IMG/VR virus record: IMGVR_UViG_3300017763_000007
Length of the DNA: 64,000 nucleotides
Direction: 5' to 3' (one strand)
DNA from: a virus
Part shown: in pieces, positions 39,633 to 48,340 of the stretch
How the letters are laid out: the number at the start of each line of letters is the position of its first letter
Numbering within the stretch: the first letter of the stretch is position 1
Made by a program: the position numbers and the translations under genes
The notes under the pieces: model-generated
Told to the model about the DNA's origin: nothing
Seen by the model: only the letters and a program-made list of their open reading frames with translations
The model's database searches: none

Positions 39633-39803
39633 ATGGACCTTCCCATTACCGATAAAGAACTCAAAACCATTGTCGATGCTCTGCGTCTTGGTGGTGACAC
39701 TTCTCTTTATCAAAAATTGAATACCATCCACCAAATCCGTAAGGATAATCCTGGTGGTCCGTACAAAAAAATTGCTAGAGAGCAGTTCGGTTACGTTATC
39801 TAA
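39633..39803 (+). CDS. small hypothetical protein (56 aa)
   Basis: Translated by hand: MDLPITDKELKTIVDALRLGGD... Confidence 0.6.
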   Translation: MDLPITDKELKTIVDALRLGGDTSLYQKLNTIHQIRKDNPGGPYKKIAREQFGYVI

Positions 39804-40261
39804 TGTTTTTTGAAAAAGTGAGCCTGGTGACAGGCGGATTTGACCCTATTCATAGTGGTCATTTGCATTATTTTGATTGTGCTAAAGATTATTCAGACTA
39901 CCTGGTGGTAGGTTTGAATGGCGATCCCTGGTTGAAACGTAAAAAGGGTCAGTATTTTCAGTCTTGGACTGAGCGTGCTGACATCGTTCGCCATTTGGAT
40001 ATGGTTGACGCTGTGGTATCATGGGACGACGCTGATGACAGTGCCTGTGGTGCTATTGCTAAGTCCTTAGAGATTGCAGAGACAGTTGTCTTCTGTAATG
40101 GTGGTGATCGTGGTGTCGATAACACCCCAGAACTCCAACGGTATAAAGATGACCCACGTGTTATCTTTGAATGGGGTGTTGGGGGACAAGAAAAAATGAA
40201 TAGCAGTTCGTGGATTCTCCACGGATATTTTGAGAGGCAACGCAAACTACTGGGTATTTGA
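39803..40261 (+). CDS. cytidylyltransferase (RfaE/TagD-like)
   Basis: TGGFDPIHSGH (intact HxGH), NGGDR, NSSS. Confidence 0.9.
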   Translation: MFFEKVSLVTGGFDPIHSGHLHYFDCAKDYSDYLVVGLNGDPWLKRKKGQYFQSWTERADIVRHLDMVDAVVSWDDADDSACGAIAKSLEIAETVVFCNGGDRGVDNTPELQRYKDDPRVIFEWGVGGQEKMNSSSWILHGYFERQRKLLGI

Positions 40262-40262
40262 C

Positions 40263-41273
40263 ATGGACTTTTTCAAAGACATCATCAAGGAGATTGGAGA
40301 TGACTTCACAAAACTCGCATCGGATGTTGACGATACGGAGCGATTTGTTGACACTGGTTCTTACATTTTCAATGCCCTTGTTAGTGGCAGCATTTATGGG
40401 GGAATTAGTGGTGACAGAATCACCGCTATTGCAGGTGAAACCTCAACAGGAAAAACGTTCTTCTCCCTCGCCGTAGTCAAAGATTTTTTAGAGAAGAACC
40501 CTGATGGTGGGGTTATGTATTTTGATACAGAATCTGCTATCAAGAAGAACATGCTGGAGGCACGTGGTATTGACCTGCAAAGGTTTGGTCATGTGCAGGT
40601 TGTAACGATTGAGCAGTTCCGGAACCGAGCACTAAAGATTGTAGACAAATACCTAAGCATTCCTGAAGGTGAGCGTAAACCTATGATGTTTGTCCTAGAT
40701 TCTCTAGGCATGCTTTCCACGGAAAAGGAGATCAGGGATGTCCTTGACGACAAGCAAACTCGCGACATGACTAAAAGTCAACTTGTCAAAGGTGCTTTCC
40801 GCATGCTCACACTCAAACTAGGTCAAGCACATGTACCGCTCATTGTCACCAACCATACTTACGATGTCATCGGAGCTTACGTACCAACTAAGGAGATGGG
40901 AGGGGGTTCTGGACTCAAGTATGCAGCGAGTACGATCATCTATCTCAGCAAAGCAAAAGAAAAGGATGGAACGGAAATCGTTGGAAACATTATCAAGGCT
41001 AAGGCAGTCAAGTCACGTCTAAGCAGGGAGAATAAAGTTGCGGCTATACGTCTTTATTACGATGAGCGTGGTCTTGATCGATATTATGGTCTTCTTGAAC
41101 TCGGTGAGAGCACTGGGGTAATCAAGAAAGTCGGAAATCGATATGAGATTGACGGTAAAAAGGTGTATGCTAAAGAGGTATACGCCAACCCTGAAAAGTA
41201 TTTCACGGAAGACCTTATGTCTCTGCTTGATGATGCGGCACAGAAAGAGTTCACTTACGGTGGGGGTGAATGA
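40263..41273 (+). CDS. uvsX: RecA-like recombinase UvsX
   Basis: AGETSTGKT, FDTESA, LDSLGML, MGGGSGLKYAAS. Confidence 0.96.
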   Translation: MDFFKDIIKEIGDDFTKLASDVDDTERFVDTGSYIFNALVSGSIYGGISGDRITAIAGETSTGKTFFSLAVVKDFLEKNPDGGVMYFDTESAIKKNMLEARGIDLQRFGHVQVVTIEQFRNRALKIVDKYLSIPEGERKPMMFVLDSLGMLSTEKEIRDVLDDKQTRDMTKSQLVKGAFRMLTLKLGQAHVPLIVTNHTYDVIGAYVPTKEMGGGSGLKYAASTIIYLSKAKEKDGTEIVGNIIKAKAVKSRLSRENKVAAIRLYYDERGLDRYYGLLELGESTGVIKKVGNRYEIDGKKVYAKEVYANPEKYFTEDLMSLLDDAAQKEFTYGGGE

Positions 41274-42658
41274 CCGAAAGGATCCCGCTAACGATCCTCA
41301 GCAATCTGGTCACAGATGAAAACTATGCACGGCAGGTACTGCCGTTCATAGAACCCGATTATTTTGAAGAAAGGACTGATCGGGTAGTCTTTGAGCAGGT
41401 TGCTTCTTTTCTATCTGAGTATGATGCTCTTCCTAGTAAGGAGGTTCTTCATATTGAGATTGAAAAACGGACAGATATTACTCAAGACGAGCACACCACG
41501 ATCACTCAGTTGGTGTCTTCTCTTGAAGAAAGTGAGTCTGAGTCTAAGTGGTTACTTGACACTACTGAATCGTGGTGTAAGCAACGTGCTATCTACCTAG
41601 CACTAATCAAAAGTATCCAGGTTGCTGATGGTGCTGATGAAAATCTTGCTCCCGATGCAATTCCTGGTATTCTTTCCGATGCTCTTGCTGTCGGGTTTGA
41701 TCAAAGTGTTGGACATGATTACCTGGATGATGCCGAGGCTCGCTATGAGTATTATCATCGGGTTGAGAATAAAATTCCTTTTGATCTTGAATATCTCAAT
41801 AAGATTACTTCAGGTGGACTGAGTGACAAGACTCTCAACATTGCTTTAGCTGGCACTGGTGTTGGTAAGTCTTTGTTCATGTGTCACGTCGCTGCTAGTG
41901 TTCTTCTCCAAGGAAAAAATGTTCTATACATTACCATGGAGATGTCTGAAGAGAAAATTGCAGAGAGGATTGACGCTAATCTTCTCGATGTCAACATTTC
42001 AGATATACAGAATGTACCTGAACAAATTTTCAAAAAGAAAATTGCAAAGATTGTATCCAAAACAACTGGTCATCTGATTGTCAAAGAATATCCTACTGCT
42101 TCCGCACATGTAGGACATTTCCGTGCATTACTTCAGGAGTTGAAGTTGAAAAAATCTTTCATTCCTGATATAATATTTGTGGACTATCTCAACATATGTG
42201 CTTCATCTCGATATAGAGGTGCTGCAAACGTGAATTCTTATTCTTATGTCAAAGCAATCGCAGAAGAACTCCGGGGGCTCGCGGTCGAAACCGCTGTCCC
42301 AGTGGTCTCAGCTACGCAGACTACTCGCTCTGGTTTTTCTAGTTCAGACCCTAACCTTACTGATACTTCTGAATCATTTGGCCTTCCAGCTACCGCTGAT
42401 CTTATGTTCGCTTTGGTTTCTACCGAAGATATGGAACGACTTAGCCAAATAATGGTCAAGCAGTTGAAGAATCGTTACAACGATATCAACATGCATAAGC
42501 GGTTTGTCGTGGGGATTGACCGTGCTAAGATGAGATTGTACGACTGCGAACAGACAGCACAGGAAGACCTGGTTGACGACATCGTAGAAGTACAACACAC
42601 GTCGAAAGACGACAACACAAAATCCAAATCAAAATTCGACGACTTCAAATGGGAGTAG
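41270..42658 (+). CDS. gp41: replicative helicase gp41
   Basis: AGTGVGKS, FVDYLNI, SESFGLPATAD, KQLKNRY. Confidence 0.97.
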   Translation: MTERIPLTILSNLVTDENYARQVLPFIEPDYFEERTDRVVFEQVASFLSEYDALPSKEVLHIEIEKRTDITQDEHTTITQLVSSLEESESESKWLLDTTESWCKQRAIYLALIKSIQVADGADENLAPDAIPGILSDALAVGFDQSVGHDYLDDAEARYEYYHRVENKIPFDLEYLNKITSGGLSDKTLNIALAGTGVGKSLFMCHVAASVLLQGKNVLYITMEMSEEKIAERIDANLLDVNISDIQNVPEQIFKKKIAKIVSKTTGHLIVKEYPTASAHVGHFRALLQELKLKKSFIPDIIFVDYLNICASSRYRGAANVNSYSYVKAIAEELRGLAVETAVPVVSATQTTRSGFSSSDPNLTDTSESFGLPATADLMFALVSTEDMERLSQIMVKQLKNRYNDINMHKRFVVGIDRAKMRLYDCEQTAQEDLVDDIVEVQHTSKDDNTKSKSKFDDFKWE

Positions 42659-43050
42659 ATTTTTCTAATTACCAACGTTTTGTAAACGGTGTTACTAGCA
42701 CTGAATCACAAGATTCTGATGCTTTCATCTACCGTCTGCAAGAACTTGGTGGTGAAATTGCAATCCAACGTCTTCTAACTGCTGCTGTAGGCATCTCTGC
42801 TGAAGGTGGTGAGTTTACGGAGATCGTAAAGAAAATGATTTTCCAAGGCAAACCTGCTAATGAAGAGAACTTGTATCACCTAAAGAGAGAATTGGGTGAT
42901 GTGATGTGGTATGTGGCACAAGCATGTATGGCACTGGATGTGGACATGGATGAAGTGCTAGATATGAACATCAAGAAACTGGAAGCACGTTTCCCTGAGG
43001 GGCATTTCAGTGAGTTCTATTCAGAGAATCGTAAAGATGGAGACATCTAA
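42649..43050 (+). CDS. mazG: MazG-like nucleotide pyrophosphohydrolase
   Basis: EGGEFTEIVKK, ELGDVMWY. Confidence 0.92.
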   Translation: MGVDFSNYQRFVNGVTSTESQDSDAFIYRLQELGGEIAIQRLLTAAVGISAEGGEFTEIVKKMIFQGKPANEENLYHLKRELGDVMWYVAQACMALDVDMDEVLDMNIKKLEARFPEGHFSEFYSENRKDGDI

Positions 43051-43726
43051 CCTTTGTATTACCTGCATCAAAATTGGAGACAAATTTGATGCAGAATATG
43101 TAAACAAACTCTACGACATGGTGCATCGCCAAATCGATGTACCATTTTTTTGTTTTACTGATAACCCCAGTGGCATCAAAGAAGGTGTTACTGTGGTTGA
43201 GATTGATGTTACTGAATATTCTCAATGGGAGAATTGGTGGCCAGCATGGTGGAAGATCAATATGTTTGTCCGTCCTGAAATACAGGACTTCAAACGTAAA
43301 ATTTTCTTTGATTTAGATGTAATCATCCATGGAGACATCACCAAGATTTTAGAAAGTAATAGTCCATTTGCTCTGGTCTATTCTTCTTGGAAAGGATTGC
43401 CTTTTCAAGTCAAAAACCCAACCAAATCGATGTTCAATTCCAGTGTAATTGCATGGGATGATGCAAAGCACATCTATGATCACTGGATGCAGGATGCCAA
43501 GGGGTTTGTTGCTAAGTATGCTGGCACTGATGACTTCTACCACAACGAAAAGATCAAAAGATATCGTCTCCCTCCCATCATCTATTCATATAGGGATGGT
43601 TGTGCTCCACGTCAAGAAAATTCTTTAGAGTTTAGACCGTCGATGGGACTTGCTATTCTCCATCAGCACCCCAAGAACCATGAACTAGACCCAAATATAC
43701 ATATTATTGCTAGGTATTGGGGATAG
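43037..43726 (+). CDS. GT-A glycosyltransferase-like protein
   Basis: CIKIGDKF..YVNKL, CFTD, WWKINMF, FFDLD (DxD). Confidence 0.75.
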   Translation: METSNLCITCIKIGDKFDAEYVNKLYDMVHRQIDVPFFCFTDNPSGIKEGVTVVEIDVTEYSQWENWWPAWWKINMFVRPEIQDFKRKIFFDLDVIIHGDITKILESNSPFALVYSSWKGLPFQVKNPTKSMFNSSVIAWDDAKHIYDHWMQDAKGFVAKYAGTDDFYHNEKIKRYRLPPIIYSYRDGCAPRQENSLEFRPSMGLAILHQHPKNHELDPNIHIIARYWG

Positions 43727-43728
43727 TA

Positions 43729-44826
43729 ATGGCAAAAATTGATCCAAAGCATCTCAAGAAATATACTGTCAAGTGGATTCTTTCTAATGAACCACTTGAT
43801 TTTTTTATGAGAATTGCTAAGTCATTCGAGCATCATATGGATCGCCGTATGCCTGGTAGAGTCAATTTTGAAATTATGTCTGCTCAAGAGTATGCAGTCA
43901 AGTATAATGGTGGAGTTGAGATTGATCATGATGATGTTCTTAGACTGTTGAAAGAAAATGAAATCCAACTAGCAGATTTTCCTGCACCTTTGTTTGCACA
44001 AAAGATCAAAGAGCGTTATCAGAATCGTCAAACTAAGGGAAAAGATTTAGATTTTGTTGAAAGTGATTGGTCAAGCATTGAAATGCCATTTCTTTTTAGA
44101 AATGAAACGCATGCCACTGCGTTTATGCAATCTAAAATGGGTGAAGAACTTATTTACTATCGTAATCAGTTGAAAGTAAAACCTATGGCAATGGTGTCTT
44201 GGGGTGGATCTAAATTGATTGCTGGGGACAAACCCTATACATCACCTGAGGATTTTGAAGGTAGTAAAGTTAGTCTCCAATACCATACTGCAGTATCAGA
44301 GAAAATTTTTGAGTCTTTGGGTGCTGAGGTCACTGATTCTGACGCTGATGCATATGAGACAGACATGCCCTCCTTTGATATGTCTAAGAAGGTGGTTACT
44401 GAACTGAATCACAGCATCAATACCAATATCATTCTTGCATCTCATCAGTTTTGGAGGAATGTAATCAAGTGTGAGTGTGATTACAGAGAGCATACTAAAG
44501 AAGAAGAGGATGCTTGTCTAAGAAAACAATTGAAACGTGCATGTAATGAAGCAACACGTGACAGAGACGTGTGGAATGATGAAATGACTGCTAAGTTTAG
44601 GCAAGAATGTGAGTCAAGAGGCATTGAGTTACATCAGGTATCTGACTCCACTCCTTTCAAAGAAAAGACTGCTTCTGTATATGATCAGTTTGTAAAATTC
44701 TTTTATGACGAACAGTTTATTGACAGTGAAAGTGAGGTTGTCAAGCATGACCTCAGAACAAGAGTGAATGATTTGTCTGACAACAGTAGAAGTGCTTGGT
44801 GTGACGACCTTACTATTGACCAATGA
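43729..44826 (+). CDS. TRAP transporter substrate-binding protein (DctP-like), no signal peptide
   Basis: EMPFLFRNETHA..F..S..GEEL, GG.K....KP..SPEDFEG.KV, FESLGA pattern of the DctP family. Confidence 0.7.
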   Translation: MAKIDPKHLKKYTVKWILSNEPLDFFMRIAKSFEHHMDRRMPGRVNFEIMSAQEYAVKYNGGVEIDHDDVLRLLKENEIQLADFPAPLFAQKIKERYQNRQTKGKDLDFVESDWSSIEMPFLFRNETHATAFMQSKMGEELIYYRNQLKVKPMAMVSWGGSKLIAGDKPYTSPEDFEGSKVSLQYHTAVSEKIFESLGAEVTDSDADAYETDMPSFDMSKKVVTELNHSINTNIILASHQFWRNVIKCECDYREHTKEEEDACLRKQLKRACNEATRDRDVWNDEMTAKFRQECESRGIELHQVSDSTPFKEKTASVYDQFVKFFYDEQFIDSESEVVKHDLRTRVNDLSDNSRSAWCDDLTIDQ

Positions 44827-45125
44827 ACGAAATTATTGATTCAATTATCGAGATCTATCGATCAACTCCTGAGGGTAATCGTAGGATGACAAGGAAGAGG
44901 CAGATGAATAGTTTCTGCCGATTTGTATTGATGATTACTGACACCGATAAATACAAGCAGTACCGAGCACCTTTGATGGTGTGGGTCCAGAAGTATCAGG
45001 ATCAAATTTACAGCAAACTAAGTGAAGAAGTTCTCGACCTTCATATCCGAAGCCCGCGTAACCAAAGCATCGCAAGAAGCGAAGCGTTTGGGACTCGTCG
45101 GGGACGGTCACGGCGATTGGTATGA
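44823..45125 (+). CDS. hypothetical protein
   Basis: Coupled ORF; its C-terminus overlaps the next gene by 104 nt. Confidence 0.5.
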   Translation: MNEIIDSIIEIYRSTPEGNRRMTRKRQMNSFCRFVLMITDTDKYKQYRAPLMVWVQKYQDQIYSKLSEEVLDLHIRSPRNQSIARSEAFGTRRGRSRRLV

Positions 45126-45918
45126 CCGCCAAGGAAACCTAAAGGCAAAAACTGTCCAGGGTTTACTTCAAATGTATTCATCCTCTGCTGGGGATGAGGA
45201 TGGACTTGGCACGTCAGGATCTAAAGCAGCATCGGTTGTAGCAAAAAGGACTACCGGTGATGGTGAAGACTATGCTAGGAAGGTAGCAACAGGTGGACCG
45301 TCATCTGCGGAACCTAATCCTAACTCTGCCAATGGACAAGCAAAAGCAGCACTCCAACAGGTCAGTCGGGATAACCCCCTTACAATTGCCTTTGATAAGT
45401 TTGACTCTGACGAGGTAACTGCTAATATACTGTCCACTGTGGAAGAAGTTTCCGGTGGCACTTACTACTACGTGTTCCCTAGCAGGGAAACAAACATTCA
45501 AGAGCTAAAAAATGCATATCCTGAGATTGGCGATGCCTTCGTTGATGACGCAAACGCAGAGACCATCTACGATGTCCTCTCCTCCCTCTATGAAAACGGT
45601 TTTGACGCGATTAGTATCGTTGTACGACAGTCAAGAGCAAAAGAAATCTCAGAGTTAGCACTCAAAGGAAACGGTCAACTATACAATTTTGTAATGTTGA
45701 ACGTCATCCCTGTGGATGAGCGTAGTATCCGTGAACAGTATATTTCTGGTGACATTTTCCAGAATGGATCCGTTATTGAGTCCAACGGAAAGGTGGGTCA
45801 AGTATTCCGTAGAGGTGCTAATCACCTGATTTGTATGGGTGAAGATAAAAAAATCTTTAGAGCATGGATTTCTGACTCTAGGCAAGTAGATAAGTTTCTC
45901 TTACCCCAAGACTTTTGA
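45022..45918 (+). CDS. degenerate cyanophage cytidyltransferase-like protein with capsid-targeting-like N-terminus
   Basis: MKKFSTFISE|A; LTIAF..., TIYDVL, NGQLYNF and RRGANHLIC match my recollection of the family, but HxGH is absent. Confidence 0.6.
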   Translation: MKKFSTFISEARVTKASQEAKRLGLVGDGHGDWYDRQGNLKAKTVQGLLQMYSSSAGDEDGLGTSGSKAASVVAKRTTGDGEDYARKVATGGPSSAEPNPNSANGQAKAALQQVSRDNPLTIAFDKFDSDEVTANILSTVEEVSGGTYYYVFPSRETNIQELKNAYPEIGDAFVDDANAETIYDVLSSLYENGFDAISIVVRQSRAKEISELALKGNGQLYNFVMLNVIPVDERSIREQYISGDIFQNGSVIESNGKVGQVFRRGANHLICMGEDKKIFRAWISDSRQVDKFLLPQDF

Positions 45919-45922
45919 CTCA

Positions 45923-45929
45923 CTAAATA
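45923..45929 (+). promoter_or_regulatory. late promoter (CTAAATA)
   Basis: Upstream of the 45957 ORF. Confidence 0.6.
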
Positions 45930-45956
45930 ATTGAACGGTAAAGCTACGTTCGTAAG

Positions 45957-47531
45957 ATGAGTAACCCTTGGGCACAGACGTATGATGATTTGCGTCGTCC
46001 TTATCTCGAAGAGAAGAAAGCAAAGAAAGATTATGATGGCGACGGCAAAGTAGAAAGCGGTTCAAAGGAACACGCTGGTGCCGTTCATAATGCTATCCAA
46101 CGTGCCAAGGGTGGCAAAGCGGACGGCAAGGACACCCGTAAAGAAGCATTCAGCATGGCTGCTGACCCTGAGAAACGGGCACTACCTCGTCCTACTAAGA
46201 AGGCAGAGAATAAAAAAAGTATGAGCATGAGGTCTCGTGCTGTAAAGGCAGTGGGCACTCAGCGTCGCCAAGATAAGGAAGTTGGTATTTCTGGGGAGAA
46301 AAACCCAAGAGCACACCGTAAAGAAAGTGTCTGGGCTGGTAATTATCAAGGTCCTCTTTATGCTCCTTGGACTGCCGTCGAAGAAGGTAAGAAAGGTCTC
46401 TGGGCAAACATTCATGCCAAGCGTAAGCGTGGTGAGGCACCTGCCAAGAAAGGTGACAAGGACTACCCAAAGACTTTGAACGTCGAAGGTAATGTGGAAG
46501 AGGGTTACAAAGAACTCTCAAGAGATAAGAGAAACAAGATGTTCCGTAAGGCAGGTAACCTGTCACGTACAGCACTACAAGGTGGTGACAAAGGAACTGA
46601 GGCACACAAGAAGTCTGGTAAGATTGTCAAGGCACTGAACAAGGATGCTGAAAAGAATAATAGAAACGATGTGAAGAAAGAGGAAACTGCCGTTCAAGAA
46701 GGCAGCATGTCAGCAGCACGTAAAAACGTTGGTGCTTCTACTTGCTGGAAAGGTTACAAGGCAAAAGGAACCAAGACCAAGGGTGGTCGCACTGTCCCCA
46801 ATTGCGTCAAGGAACATTCTGATTGGCGTGAGGAAATGGGGGACGACGGTTTTTTTTCCGAAGCCGCTAAGCGTCAAAACGATTTAGACATCAAGACGAG
46901 CGGCATCAAAAACAAAATCGAGATCAACCCTGAACTCAAGACTGAGGGTGCGTGCTCCGATAAACCCATGGAACGTCTGAAGACTGACCGTGATGGTTAT
47001 CGTGTTACTCAAAAAGATGCCGATGCTGCTAAGGCACGGATCATGGCGAAGACAAAGAAGAAGCGGGAGCAGGCAAAAGAAAACATCATGAAGGGACCTC
47101 TCCTTCCTGGTGAAGCACGTAAGGTATTCCCCAAGGGTGCTGCACCTAAATCGACTGGTGCAAAACTGCCTCTTCAAACGGCATCATACAATCCGATGCT
47201 TGACTCTGTAGAAGCACAAGCACTCCAGATGATTGAGCGTACTCGTTACGCCAAGGAAACTGGAAAGGATCATAAGACTGGGAAAGCATCTGAGAAAGGT
47301 GGAACCCGTGATGGTAAGAGTGCCTTTGATAAAGTCAGTCGCAATATGCGGAAGACTGGTGGCATGATGTCCTCTCGTGGTAAAGCGATCCAACCGCAAG
47401 GTAAAAAGAAGGATAAAGGTGCTAAAGGTTATCAAGGACAAACTCCTGTAGATAAGATCAAGGGTCAACTCGCCAAGAAGAGAGCACCAAAACCAAACCC
47501 ATACAAACCACGTGCTGGGGAGTCTGATTGA
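45957..47531 (+). CDS. large basic modular protein, probable internal virion protein
   Basis: Lys-rich modules separated by (L/V/I)xE sites; CWKGYK...VPNCVKE module. Confidence 0.65.
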   Translation: MSNPWAQTYDDLRRPYLEEKKAKKDYDGDGKVESGSKEHAGAVHNAIQRAKGGKADGKDTRKEAFSMAADPEKRALPRPTKKAENKKSMSMRSRAVKAVGTQRRQDKEVGISGEKNPRAHRKESVWAGNYQGPLYAPWTAVEEGKKGLWANIHAKRKRGEAPAKKGDKDYPKTLNVEGNVEEGYKELSRDKRNKMFRKAGNLSRTALQGGDKGTEAHKKSGKIVKALNKDAEKNNRNDVKKEETAVQEGSMSAARKNVGASTCWKGYKAKGTKTKGGRTVPNCVKEHSDWREEMGDDGFFSEAAKRQNDLDIKTSGIKNKIEINPELKTEGACSDKPMERLKTDRDGYRVTQKDADAAKARIMAKTKKKREQAKENIMKGPLLPGEARKVFPKGAAPKSTGAKLPLQTASYNPMLDSVEAQALQMIERTRYAKETGKDHKTGKASEKGGTRDGKSAFDKVSRNMRKTGGMMSSRGKAIQPQGKKKDKGAKGYQGQTPVDKIKGQLAKKRAPKPNPYKPRAGESD

Positions 47532-48340
47532 TGAAAAGTTTTAGAAAATTCCTTGAAGATGTAGAACTTACTGATGCATATGGTGAGACTTTTGCTGTCA
47601 TTCATGACGTAGTAAAAGTTGAACCATTGAAACGTGCTAAATTTCCGAACGCCCCATTCCGTGAGGATGATGTAAACGAGGTAGAGGAAGGTTTCAAGAC
47701 TCAGTATGGTAAGAAAGATAAGATGGCTCAGTCTTCTGAAAGGAAGACCTTGGGTCGTCGTTCTTCTACCAAAGATGGGTCTAAACCCACTGGTTATGAA
47801 TCTCCAAAAGAGTTTCGTGACAAGTCTATGCCTCTCCGTAAATTCCGTGATCGGTTTCAAAAAGAAGGTATTGTTACTGGTGCATTAGCAGGTGCTGCAT
47901 TAGTTGGTGGTGTTGCTTCTATCATGAATAATGCAAGGAAAGCTGCAAGTAAAGATAATCACAGTGATAAATCAGTTGGTAAACCAACTCTTCAGGGTGT
48001 AGCATCTGGGATTAGAAATAGAAATGCTGCTTTGCAAAAGGCAATGAACAATTCTTTTGATCCTATTTCTGCTGGTGTTGCTACGTATCTTGAAGGAGCA
48101 TCCTGGACAAAAAAGTCCGGTAAGAATCAGGAAGGTGGTCTCAATGAAAAAGGACGCAAGTCCTATGAGAAAGCAAACCCTGGTTCAGACCTAAAAGCAC
48201 CCACGAAAACTAAGGGGAATCCTCGTCGTTCTTCGTTCTGTGCACGCATGAAAGGGATGAAAAAGAAGTTGACTTCTAAGAAAACTGCATCTGATCCAGA
48301 CAGCAGAATCAATAAGTCACTTCGTAAGTGGGATTGCTGA
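47531..48340 (+). CDS. probable internal virion protein
   Basis: MKSFRKFLE N-terminus; C-terminal GKNQEGGLN...RRSSFCARM...RKWDC module. Confidence 0.65.
   Translation: MKSFRKFLEDVELTDAYGETFAVIHDVVKVEPLKRAKFPNAPFREDDVNEVEEGFKTQYGKKDKMAQSSERKTLGRRSSTKDGSKPTGYESPKEFRDKSMPLRKFRDRFQKEGIVTGALAGAALVGGVASIMNNARKAASKDNHSDKSVGKPTLQGVASGIRNRNAALQKAMNNSFDPISAGVATYLEGASWTKKSGKNQEGGLNEKGRKSYEKANPGSDLKAPTKTKGNPRRSSFCARMKGMKKKLTSKKTASDPDSRINKSLRKWDC

What the first reader, a model, noticed from the sequence alone, without database searches (positions are those of the whole stretch)
43729..44826. Orphan TRAP substrate-binding protein with no export signal and an altered ligand site
Seen: DctP-like motifs, but the N-terminus (MAKIDPKHLKKYTVKW) has no hydrophobic signal peptide, no DctQ/DctM genes are present in the window, and the segment that usually carries the carboxylate-binding Arg (G.K.R) reads GSKVS. 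It sits between a glycosyltransferase and the internal-protein block. Inference: a transporter fold repurposed as a cytoplasmic metabolite sensor or sponge (for example for defence signals), or a decayed AMG.
Basis: partly seen in the sequence, partly recalled or inferred. Interest (0 to 1): 0.65.

Follow-up and report, generated by a model that had tools for sequence, protein, structure and literature searches.

The report
Leaderless cyanophage DctP-fold protein, cysteine insert
A cyanophage carries an intact, selected copy of a bacterial "transporter" binding protein that cannot leave the cell, has no transporter to dock to, keeps changing the residue that normally clamps organic acids, and has gained a strongly conserved cysteine/histidine insert, so it most likely binds something inside the infected cell instead of importing nutrients.

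Summary
Window 43729-44826 (+) encodes a 365-aa protein with a confident TRAP solute-binding (DctP) fold. The first strand starts at residue 12, so there is no room for a signal peptide. Neither the window nor a complete 192-kb relative has dctQ or dctM. Ser182 sits where the family's carboxylate-clamping Arg should be.

The "decayed AMG" reading is rejected. The gene is intact in about 20 contigs, with dN/dS 0.10-0.41.

New here:
- It is a long-branch subclade inside a large, mostly viral, leaderless DctP clade (at least 501 viral contigs).
- With its sister clade it shares a 13-residue insert, C-x-C-x4-H-x7-C-x8-C, at the start of the hinge helix. This is the most constrained part of the protein.
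- The Arg site toggles S/R/H/K among near-identical alleles.
- The gene occupies a cyanophage hot spot. Other phages carry a DUF2061, leaderless DctP and PP-loop enzyme cassette at the same site.

Best reading: a cytoplasmic Venus-flytrap binder, not a transporter part, with unknown ligand. A role as a sponge for defence signals is neither supported nor excluded. This scan has found leaderless phage DctPs on other DNA before, and first readers noted this same subclade on another genome. I found no paper describing them.

The parts
43729..44826 (+). Gene for the 365-aa leaderless DctP-fold protein ('DctP1'). The stop codon is included.
43729..43761 (+). The eleven N-terminal residues (MAKIDPKHLKK) before strand 1. 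They are charged, with no hydrophobic core, so there is no signal peptide.
   Evidence: Model secondary structure shows strand E12-18. Maximum Kyte-Doolittle 12-mer is 0.51. The same N-terminus is seen in all orthologues.
44212..44214 (+). Lys162. It aligns with the first conserved Arg of TRAP SBPs (GSRS/GARS; Arg127 in SiaP, Arg156 in IseP).
   Evidence: Alignments to 4p1l, 4x8r and 4xfe. It is Lys in all alleles except the 46% clade, where it is Arg. The residue roles come from PMC11668362.
44272..44274 (+). Ser182 (AGT), at the position of the carboxylate-clamping 'selectivity filter' Arg (SiaP Arg147).
   Evidence: alignment; S/R/H/K among orthologues, 4 parsimony changes on 16 sequences; PMC4646407.
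44359..44361 (+). Thr211 in the invariant E-T-D. It aligns with the Asn of the D-G-x-E-N motif (SiaP Asn187, IseP Asn217).
   Evidence: Alignment to 4x8r, 'dayETDlPSfD' against 'DGAENNWPSYD'. Invariant in the clade. The equation with SiaP Asn187 rests on my recollection of the motif.
44464..44544 (+). Clade-specific insert and the start of the hinge helix: I-K-C248-E-C250-D-Y-R-E-H255-T-K-E-E-E-D-A-C263-L-R-K-Q-L-K-R-A-C272. This is a putative metal-binding element.
   Evidence: It is a 13-residue insertion relative to other leaderless DctPs. It is almost letter-identical in the sister clade, which is 29% identical overall. All four Cys and His255 are invariant. It has the lowest pN/pS of the protein, 0.14 against 0.32-0.48.
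44704..44823 (+). C-terminal extension of about 40 residues beyond the usual end of DctP, ending W-C358-D-D-L-T-I-D. Model confidence is lower here.
   Evidence: Cys358 is replaced by His in P0002.
43037..43726 (+). Glycosyltransferase-like gene. Its stop lies 2 nt before the DctP1 start, and it is the constant upstream neighbour.
   Evidence: PHROG 1962, E 2.9e-12. Synteny holds in the 13 of 15 loci whose DNA reaches upstream of DctP1. It also flanks the DctP2 cassette in other cyanophages.
44823..45125 (+). 100-aa ORF overlapping the DctP1 stop (ATGA). It is the constant downstream neighbour, and its function is unknown.
40263..43050 (+). uvsX, gp41 helicase and mazG. They form a gap-free gene chain leading into the GT-like gene and DctP1.
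44947..44953 (+). ATAAATA, the only match to the late-promoter core between 36 and 49 kb. It lies downstream of DctP1 and about 70 nt before the 45022 ORF.
   Evidence: TATAAATA is absent from this region.

Best explanation
The gene makes a soluble, cytoplasmic Venus-flytrap binding protein with the DctP (TRAP solute-binding) fold. It is not part of a transporter.

It belongs to a large, mostly viral clade of DctP proteins that lost the signal peptide once. Within that clade it is a fast-diverged offshoot, here called 'DctP1'. After leader loss, the common ancestor of DctP1 and its sister clade gained a C-x-C-x4-H-x7-C-x8-C insert at the N-terminal end of the hinge helix. I infer that this insert holds a metal ion or is a docking surface, and that it is now the functional core of the protein.

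The DctP1 branch then lost the His of the W-x-x-A-H-E-P pocket loop and released the carboxylate-clamping Arg from constraint. That position is S here and R, H or K in other alleles. The other pocket-motif residues stayed fixed.

The window allele therefore probably binds a small molecule that does not need an Arg-carboxylate salt bridge, or binds its ligand weakly enough to act only at high intracellular concentration. It would sequester, buffer or hand over that ligand during the replication phase of infection.

Shown: fold, absence of leader and of membrane partners, purifying selection, clade position, insert conservation, variability of the Arg site. Inferred: cytoplasmic location, metal binding, ligand binding as such, and early/middle expression.
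For: Fold and family.

No leader, in every orthologue.

No DctQ/M in the window or in the complete relative G001. G001 is a cyanophage, with psbA and psbD.

Selection: pairwise dN/dS is 0.10-0.41 and there are no stops in any copy.

Clade position: an exhaustive HMMER search and a tree place the protein on a 0.84 stem inside a clade of 55 rows, supported at SH-aLRT 97. Of those rows, 46 of the 48 classified by N-terminus lack a leader, and the other seven are this clade, its sister and the two cyanophage paralogues, which also lack one. At least 501 viral contigs encode relatives of that clade. The nearest ESM-Atlas clusters are 100% viral.

Insert: it is absent from other leaderless DctPs and nearly identical between two clades that share only 29% identity. 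It has the lowest entropy and the lowest pN/pS, 0.14. The Cys358-to-His change in one allele is what a metal ligand would tolerate, not a disulfide.

Arg site: it is among the top 20 of 365 columns for number of changes. L008 (Ser) and P0003 (Arg) differ at only 5 residues, one of which is this site. Three of the states are AGT, CAT and AAA, each one step from an Arg codon.

Role of the Arg: its loss lowers affinity but does not abolish function at high ligand concentration. Only 3% of 6142 DctP sequences lack it, and one of those binds ethanolamine (PMC4646407).

Expression: gap-free coupling to uvsX, gp41, mazG and the GT-like gene, with the only late-promoter-like site downstream.
Against: No ligand, metal or partner has been shown.

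NCBIfam's TRAP models score below their cut-offs (41.5 against 50; 36.1 against 175), so the protein is far from working TRAP SBPs and might no longer bind small molecules at all.

Cys263 and Cys272 are 9 residues apart on one helix, so they face different sides and cannot both reach the same ion without a kink.

Expression timing rests on consensus scans only.

dS is saturated in many of the pairs, so dN/dS values for distant pairs are rough.
Confidence: 0.6

Rival explanations
1. Counter-defence sponge or sensor. The protein soaks up, or reports on, a host immune or stress signalling molecule. The toggling residue at the specificity site reflects an arms race.
For: The gene diverges much faster than its flanks. 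L010 and L011 differ by dS 0.16 and dN 0.066 in this gene, against dS 0-0.02 in the GT-like gene, mazG and uvsX. Protein identity among orthologues is 46-78% where neighbours are 85-95%. The Arg-equivalent site shows recurrent change. The gene probably sits in the early/middle block. It lies at a hot spot where gene content differs between lineages.
Against: No known sponge has this fold, and the leading fold matches, all 48 rows listed, are TRAP SBPs. There are no PADLOC matches for it or its neighbours, though that library holds defence genes, not anti-defence genes. The nearest paralogues are tied to a PP-loop enzyme and a DUF2061 membrane protein, which looks metabolic. The best-conserved part is the insert, not the cleft. 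Uneven dS across adjacent genes fits recombinational allele swapping as well as it fits selection.
Confidence: 0.1
2. The fold is kept, but the job is protein-protein rather than ligand binding. The Cys/His insert and the C-terminal extension would form an interface, for example with the second leaderless DctP, the GT-like protein or a host protein, and the cleft would be vestigial.
For: The insert is the most constrained segment and the Arg site one of the least constrained. The pocket-loop His of the wider family is lost, AHEP becoming SNEP. Scores against NCBIfam TRAP models are sub-threshold. A second leaderless DctP co-occurs in both genomes long enough to judge, G001 and the L013 contig.
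Against: Other residues that align with pocket motifs are invariant across the clade: N20, P22, H128, W158, G159, E210, T211, D212, H228, S229. A dead cleft would not predict that. No partner has been identified.
Confidence: 0.17
3. A decaying or neutral remnant of a host-derived transporter gene (a decayed AMG).
For: The canonical Arg is lost, there are no partner genes, and divergence is faster than in the flanks.
Against: dN/dS is 0.10-0.41. The frame is intact in every copy across alleles from 46% to 99% identity. There are 136 invariant columns and the insert is under strong constraint. No cyanobacterial locus appeared among the 76 genome loci of this subfamily, so host origin is not supported.
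Confidence: 0.03
4. The protein is still periplasmic. It would be exported by an unrecognised route and feed a host TRAP or other membrane transporter.
For: The complete SBP fold is retained. Related proteins with signal peptides exist in bacteria.
Against: Only 11 polar residues precede strand 1. The whole clade around it is leaderless. No DctQ/M is found in the phage. Five conserved cysteines, one of them exchangeable with His, suit a reducing compartment. Whether marine picocyanobacteria have DctQM was not tested here.
Confidence: 0.03

Closest known systems
DctP-family TRAP transporter solute-binding proteins (Pfam PF03480), for example H. influenzae SiaP, IseP (8T9T), and 4P47, 4P1L, 4X8R
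   Same: The same two-lobe fold with a hinge helix (Foldseek E 2e-19, TMt 0.7-0.8). The Pfam score is above the gathering threshold. Recognisable motifs are retained: the PFLF loop, W-G-G, G-x-K-V-x, E-T-D and N-H-S.
   Different: There is no signal peptide and no DctQ/M. The selectivity-filter Arg is Ser here and varies among alleles. The Asn of the carboxylate triad is Thr and the first Arg is Lys. There is a 13-residue Cys/His insert before the hinge helix and a C-terminal extension of about 40 residues. The protein scores below the NCBIfam TRAP cut-offs.
Leaderless, mostly viral DctP clade with N-terminal W-[VL]-x-A-H-E-P. It is undescribed in the papers I could search, but this scan has noted it repeatedly. 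It includes the cyanophage 'DctP2' of G001 (L002) and of L013/L118.
   Same: The window protein nests inside this clade (SH-aLRT 97). It shares the start of the fold within the first 5-15 residues and the motifs W..xxEP..F.R.A..F and EY..KYN.G. It occupies the same cyanophage hot spot, downstream of uvsX, gp41, mazG and the GT-like gene.
   Different: It is only 25-30% identical and sits on a long stem. AHEP reads SNEP. In the window it is not adjacent to the PP-loop (SGGxDS) enzyme and DUF2061 protein that flank the typical members: the PP-loop enzyme is the +1 neighbour in 41 of 80 loci and DUF2061 the -1 neighbour in 29. It has the Cys/His insert. It lies in the replication-gene chain, not behind a promoter of its own.
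TRAP SBPs that naturally lack the Arg (about 3% of the family), for example Csal_0678, which binds ethanolamine, and T. pallidum Tp0957, which has Ala and a hydrophobic pocket. Both as cited in PMC4646407.
   Same: Loss of the Arg147 equivalent, implying a ligand that is not a classic carboxylate.
   Different: Those proteins are exported parts of transporters with a fixed replacement residue. Here the residue toggles among S, R, H and K between near-identical alleles, and the protein is leaderless.
Phage small-molecule sponges (Tad1, Tad2, Acb2). I name these from general knowledge; they were not retrieved here.
   Same: Only the proposed logic is shared: a phage-encoded soluble binder acting inside the cell.
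   Different: No sequence or fold relation was detected. The leading structural matches, all 48 rows listed, are TRAP SBPs.

Membership tests
DctP-family TRAP solute-binding protein (PF03480) | Sequence match to the family model above its curated threshold | tested here: met
   PF03480 gives 56.9 bits against 23.4. The stricter NCBIfam models are below cut-off: NF037995 41.5 against 50, TIGR00787 36.1 against 175.
DctP-family TRAP solute-binding protein (PF03480) | Two-lobe TRAP SBP fold with a spanning hinge helix | tested here: met
   AF2 pLDDT 87.5, pTM 0.86. The leading Foldseek PDB hits, all 48 rows listed, are TRAP SBPs, E about 2e-19.
DctP-family TRAP solute-binding protein (PF03480) | N-terminal signal peptide or lipoprotein signal for export | tested here: not met
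   Eleven polar residues precede strand 1. There is no upstream coding room. All orthologues are the same.
DctP-family TRAP solute-binding protein (PF03480) | Partner DctQ and DctM membrane subunits encoded with it | tested here: not met
   No multi-TM ORF in the window. PF06808 and PF04290 are absent from the complete relative G001, while the control genomes matched. The window's own whole genome is not held.
DctP-family TRAP solute-binding protein (PF03480) | Conserved carboxylate-clamping Arg (SiaP Arg147), present in about 97% of members | tested here: not met
   It is Ser182 in the window and S/R/H/K across alleles. The 97% figure is from PMC4646407.
DctP-family TRAP solute-binding protein (PF03480) | Delivers a solute to a membrane transporter | not testable with these tools
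   Needs biochemistry.
Leaderless viral DctP clade (W-x-x-A-H-E-P type) | Falls inside the clade in a tree of the subfamily | tested here: met
   In a quick IQ-TREE of 122 rows, the 55-row clade has SH-aLRT 97. The window clade plus the P0009 clade has 97. This was a quick search without a mixture model, so long-branch artefacts are possible.
Leaderless viral DctP clade (W-x-x-A-H-E-P type) | No signal peptide, with the fold starting within about 15 residues | tested here: met
Leaderless viral DctP clade (W-x-x-A-H-E-P type) | A-H-E-P loop after strand 1 | tested here: not met
   The window has W-I-L-S-N-E-P. The sister P0009 clade keeps A-H-E-P.
Leaderless viral DctP clade (W-x-x-A-H-E-P type) | Adjacent PP-loop (SGGxDS) enzyme and DUF2061 protein | tested here: not met
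   tblastn finds no PP-loop enzyme homologue anywhere in the window. DUF2061 itself was not searched for; the adjacent genes are the GT-like gene and the 100-aa ORF. The cassette lies directly downstream of the 46% orthologue in L013/L017.
Known anti-phage defence proteins (PADLOC) | Match to any model | tested here: not met
   No hits at E 0.01 or better for the protein, its two neighbours, DctP2 or the PP-loop enzyme.

The most novel reading that the evidence does not exclude
DctP1 is a new kind of phage effector: a metal- or redox-gated Venus-flytrap protein whose ligand specificity is retuned by single-nucleotide switches (Arg, Ser, His, Lys) at the old carboxylate clamp. Cyanophages would use it early in infection to capture a host signalling or defence metabolite. 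That would make it the first sponge or sensor built on a transporter binding-protein fold.
Probability: 0.1. Interest if true: 0.85.

Novelty: new variant of a known kind. Interest (0 to 1): 0.55.

Why it matters
Solute-binding proteins are textbook extracytoplasmic parts of transporters. A large, selected, mostly viral lineage that has dropped both export and transporter says the fold has a second, intracellular life in infected cells, and that life has not been described in any paper I could find.

This gene is the most derived form seen so far. The family's near-universal specificity residue has become a polymorphic switch, and a new cysteine/histidine element has become the most constrained part of the protein. 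That gives concrete, cheap experiments: metal content, ligand screens of the four natural residue variants, and partner pull-downs. These could reveal a new infection-stage function in abundant marine cyanophages.

Tried and rejected
Contexts of the database homologues had to come from the search for related loci instead.
- GenBank phage records gave only weak, unrelated-looking hits for DctP1, DctP2 and the GT-like gene. No cultured phage could be used as a reference.
- Literature searches on cyanophage/phage + TRAP/DctP, on leaderless cytoplasmic SBPs, and on AMG + DctP found no description of such proteins. Most 'dctp' hits were the nucleotide dCTP.
- The insert alone (65 aa) matched nothing in the PDB.
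- PADLOC gave nothing.
- BFVD held only fragments of phage DctP-like proteins.
- A direct pairwise alignment to a PDB chain id was not accepted.
- Model coordinates are not exposed. Pocket geometry, Cys-Cys distances and mapping of variable sites on the surface could not be done.
- The context of the sister clade P0009 came from a single 5.9-kb locus (small ORFs, a glutaredoxin-like ORF and a radical-SAM-like ORF) and was uninformative.
- Co-occurrence of DctP1 with DctP2 could be judged only in G001 and the L013 contig. The other contigs are 10-28% complete.
- The idea that the GT-like gene is a functional partner was set aside. It also flanks the DctP2 cassette and travels with uvsX, gp41 and mazG, so it may be only a syntenic anchor.
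- Whether host picocyanobacteria have DctQM was not tested, because no handle to such genomes was available.
Full report
1. WHAT IS THERE

Window 43729-44826 (+) is an open frame of 365 codons. It matches Pfam DctP (PF03480) at 56.9 bits, against a gathering score of 23.4. It matches solved TRAP solute-binding proteins down to E 5.8e-10 with the single sequence and 1e-13 with a profile of its orthologues.

An AlphaFold2 model built on a 124-sequence alignment is confident (pLDDT 87.5, pTM 0.86). The leading Foldseek matches in the PDB, all 48 rows listed of at least 500, are TRAP SBPs: 4P47, 4XFE, SiaP, PA0884, IseP and others, with E about 2e-19 and target-normalised TM 0.7-0.8. The DctP fold is therefore real and complete.

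2. NO EXPORT SIGNAL AND NO MEMBRANE PARTNERS

The first strand of the fold is residues 12-18. The eleven residues before it, MAKIDPKHLKK, are polar. The only upstream in-frame start adds four residues. The stop of the preceding gene lies 2 nt before the ATG, which is preceded by GGGGA.

All eight database homologues (46-98% identity) and all orthologous loci found (15 viral, 7 metagenomic) start the same way.

No ORF of 90 aa or more in the window has more than two hydrophobic 19-mers, so neither a 4-TM DctQ nor a 12-TM DctM is present. The window's own genome is not held. The nearest held record, G001, is a 192-kb virus rated complete. It carries a 98% ortholog and has no match to PF06808 (DctM) or PF04290 (DctQ), while the control genomes did match. 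G001 also has psbA and psbD. The window's gp41 helicase is 69-75% identical to those of Synechococcus and Prochlorococcus myoviruses. The element is therefore an uncultured T4-like cyanophage.

3. THE LIGAND SITE

In all six residue-level alignments that cover the site (to 4P1L, 4OVQ, 4OVR, 4X8R and 4XFE), the Ser of G-S-K-V-S182 falls on the Arg of G-x-K-[VIF]-R. That Arg is the family's selectivity filter for carboxylates. Only 3% of 6142 family members lack it. Its loss in SiaP abolishes high-affinity binding but not function at high substrate. A natural Arg-less member binds ethanolamine (PMC4646407).

The same alignments put Lys162 on the first conserved Arg, and Thr211 (in an invariant E-T-D) on the Asn of D-G-x-E-N. 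The residue roles are from PMC11668362; the SiaP numbering is from memory.

4. NOT DECAYING

Pairwise Nei-Gojobori dN/dS between seven orthologues is 0.10-0.41. Many distant pairs are saturated in dS. No copy has a stop. 136 of 365 columns are invariant across alleles down to 46% identity.

The gene does evolve faster than its neighbours. Its protein identity is 46-78% where the GT-like gene, mazG, gp41 and uvsX are 85-95%. Between L010 and L011, dS is 0.16 in this gene but 0-0.02 in the flanks. Between the window and L006 the contrast runs the other way, 0.09 against 0.39. The locus is therefore a recombinational mosaic of alleles.

5. WHERE IT BELONGS

An exhaustive HMMER search found 174 relatives at E below 1e-3. 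Nearly all of them share an N-terminal W-[VL]-x-A-H-E-P signature, and about half have no signal peptide.

In a tree of 122 sequences, a 55-row clade is supported at SH-aLRT 97. Of the 48 database rows in it that were scored by N-terminus, 46 are leaderless. The other seven rows are the window's clade, its sister and the two cyanophage paralogues, which also lack a leader. The window's clade plus a sister clade (P0009, 369 aa, 74 members) sits inside on a long stem of 0.84. This was a quick search without a mixture model.

The second DctP of G001 (L002, 318 aa, Arg kept) and of L013 lie in another branch of the same leaderless clade. Patterns from that clade hit at least 501 viral contigs. The nearest ESM-Atlas clusters are 100% viral.

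In genomes, the subfamily, both with and without leader, is concentrated in MAGs of Bdellovibrionota. It also occurs in Elusimicrobia, Myxococcota, Planctomycetota and CPR bacteria. None of the 76 loci is cyanobacterial, so the gene is not an evident host-derived AMG.

6. CONTEXT

All 15 viral loci keep the core synteny as far as their DNA reaches. The full order is uvsX, gp41, mazG, GT-like gene, DctP1, 100-aa ORF, then the lysine-rich block.

In L013/L017 the 46% orthologue is followed directly by four genes, placed before the 100-aa ORF: a DUF2061 mini-membrane protein, a second leaderless DctP, a 378-aa protein and a 335-aa ORF. The 378-aa protein carries the PP-loop motif SGGIDS, and its relatives sit beside leaderless DctPs in bacterial MAG loci too.

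In the 80 best viral loci of the wider clade, a PP-loop protein is the +1 neighbour in 41; 60 of the 62 members of that protein cluster have SGGxDS. DUF2061 is the -1 neighbour in 29. In 13-18 of these loci the cassette sits at this same cyanophage site, after uvsX, gp41, mazG and the GT-like gene (for example L118). These results confirm leads from earlier notes of this scan.

The window itself has neither the PP-loop enzyme nor a second DctP. G001 has its DctP2 46 kb away, between two unrelated ORFs of 348-393 aa, and has no PP-loop homologue. DctP1 is thus an offshoot that now stands apart from the family's usual enzyme partner.

7. WHAT IS NEW IN THIS SUBCLADE

(a) The insert. Relative to other leaderless DctPs there is a 13-residue insertion just before the hinge helix. 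It gives I-K-C-E-C-D-[YF]-x-x-H-T-x-E-E-x-x-x-C-L-R-K-Q-[LM]-K-x-A-C. It is almost letter-identical between the window clade and the P0009 clade, which share only 29% identity overall. The four Cys and His255 are invariant. Residues 236-280 have pN/pS 0.14, against 0.32-0.48 elsewhere, at equal pS. The window clade adds a C-terminal extension ending W-C-D-D, and its Cys is His in one allele. I read this as a probable metal site, or a constrained docking element. This could not be checked because model coordinates are not exposed, and the segment matches nothing in the PDB.

(b) The Arg site as a switch. It is S in the window group and in L008, L179 and L180. It is R in P0003, L012 and P0005. 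It is H in L009-L011, P0004, P0006, P0007, L181 and L182. It is K in the 46% clade. L008 (S) and P0003 (R) differ at only five residues, one of which is this site. On a 16-sequence tree the column needs four changes, which places it among the 20 most changeable of 365. The observed codons AGT, CAT and AAA are each one step from an Arg codon.

The sister P0009 clade keeps both A-H-E-P and an Arg in the G-x-x-V-R segment. The likely order of events is therefore leader loss, then the insert, then release of the Arg and loss of the pocket-loop His.

8. EXPRESSION

From 39803 to 48340 there is no intergenic gap over 50 nt. DctP1 is translationally close-coupled on both sides. No TATAAATA lies in the region. 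The only ATAAATA between 36 and 49 kb is at 44947, downstream of DctP1 and ahead of the 45022 ORF. I infer co-transcription with the replication genes, that is early or middle expression. Consensus scans are weak evidence.

9. MECHANISM AND RIVALS

Best reading (0.6): a cytoplasmic Venus-flytrap binder that works without a transporter. In the window allele its ligand is not held by an Arg-carboxylate bridge, and the Cys/His insert is central to its function.

Rivals:
- A protein-partner role with a vestigial cleft (0.17).
- An anti-defence sponge or sensor (0.10). Allele turnover and the switching site favour this. Nothing direct supports it, and PADLOC gives nothing.
- A decaying AMG (0.03), contradicted by the evidence of selection.
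- Cryptic export to a host transporter (0.03).

10. NOVELTY

Fold and family are known. The leaderless viral lineage is not described in the papers I could search. UniProt-derived names in BFVD only say 'TRAP transporter solute receptor' for fragments from uncultured phages.

This scan has already reported leaderless phage DctPs on other DNA, and first readers flagged this same subclade on another genome. What this report adds is the subclade's place in the tree, the shared insert, the polymorphic Arg site, the hot-spot relationship to the PP-loop cassette, and the rejection of the decay hypothesis.

Noticed in passing
L118:5701-9098 and L013:7154-10668 (viral contigs). This is the same genomic site as window 43727-44823.: Other cyanophages carry a cassette exactly where the window has DctP1: DUF2061 mini-membrane protein, leaderless DctP (Arg kept), a PP-loop (SGGxDS) enzyme of about 380 aa, and an ORF of about 310-335 aa. 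The L013 lineage has both DctP1 and the cassette.
   Followed up: partly
L002:212-1393 (+) and L002:2472-3518 (+), in G001: In the complete relative, the second leaderless DctP is flanked on the opposite strand by two ORFs of 393 and 348 aa. The two ORFs are paralogues of each other and both begin PKFIxFLGxxxSATTPL. They have no Pfam match, and only a faint NCBIfam hit to an O-methyl phosphoramidate transferase family (E 0.005).
   Followed up: partly
L018-L093 (genome-contig loci): The W-x-x-A-H-E-P DctP subfamily is concentrated in MAGs of predatory or host-dependent bacteria: Bdellovibrio, Bacteriovorax, Pseudobdellovibrio, Elusimicrobia, Myxococcota and CPR. There are several copies per genome. 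Copies with a leader sit with an NMT1-type ABC transporter, an AMP-binding enzyme and an MBOAT. Leaderless copies sit with the PP-loop enzyme. Some short 'bacterial' contigs may be mis-binned phage.
   Followed up: partly
L094:1912-9325, L173, L144 (viral contigs): Some large uncultured phages combine several PP-loop enzymes with a leaderless DctP and also with TctC/Bug-type (TTT) binding proteins. Some of the latter have signal peptides.
   Followed up: no
window 43037-45125 compared with L003-L017: Synonymous divergence is very uneven between adjacent genes. For example, L010 and L011 differ by dS 0.16 in DctP1 but 0-0.02 in the flanks, and the window against L006 shows the opposite contrast. 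Alleles of this gene are being swapped by recombination.
   Followed up: partly
window 44947-44953: This is the only ATAAATA (late-promoter-like core) in 36-49 kb. It lies inside the 100-aa ORF, about 70 nt before the GTG of the 45022-45918 ORF that opens the lysine-rich block.
   Followed up: no
window 43037-43726: The GT-like gene has no homologue in cultured cyanophages in the GenBank phage set. Its only hits are about 25% identical, in a Pelagibacter myophage and in Xanthomonas and Stenotrophomonas jumbo phages.
   Followed up: no
L174:1-5868: The sister clade P0009 (369 aa; keeps AHEP, the Arg and the Cys insert) sits among small unknown ORFs, a glutaredoxin-like ORF (CQWC) and an ORF with a radical-SAM-like CxxxCxxC motif. 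It shows none of the synteny seen in the window.
   Followed up: no
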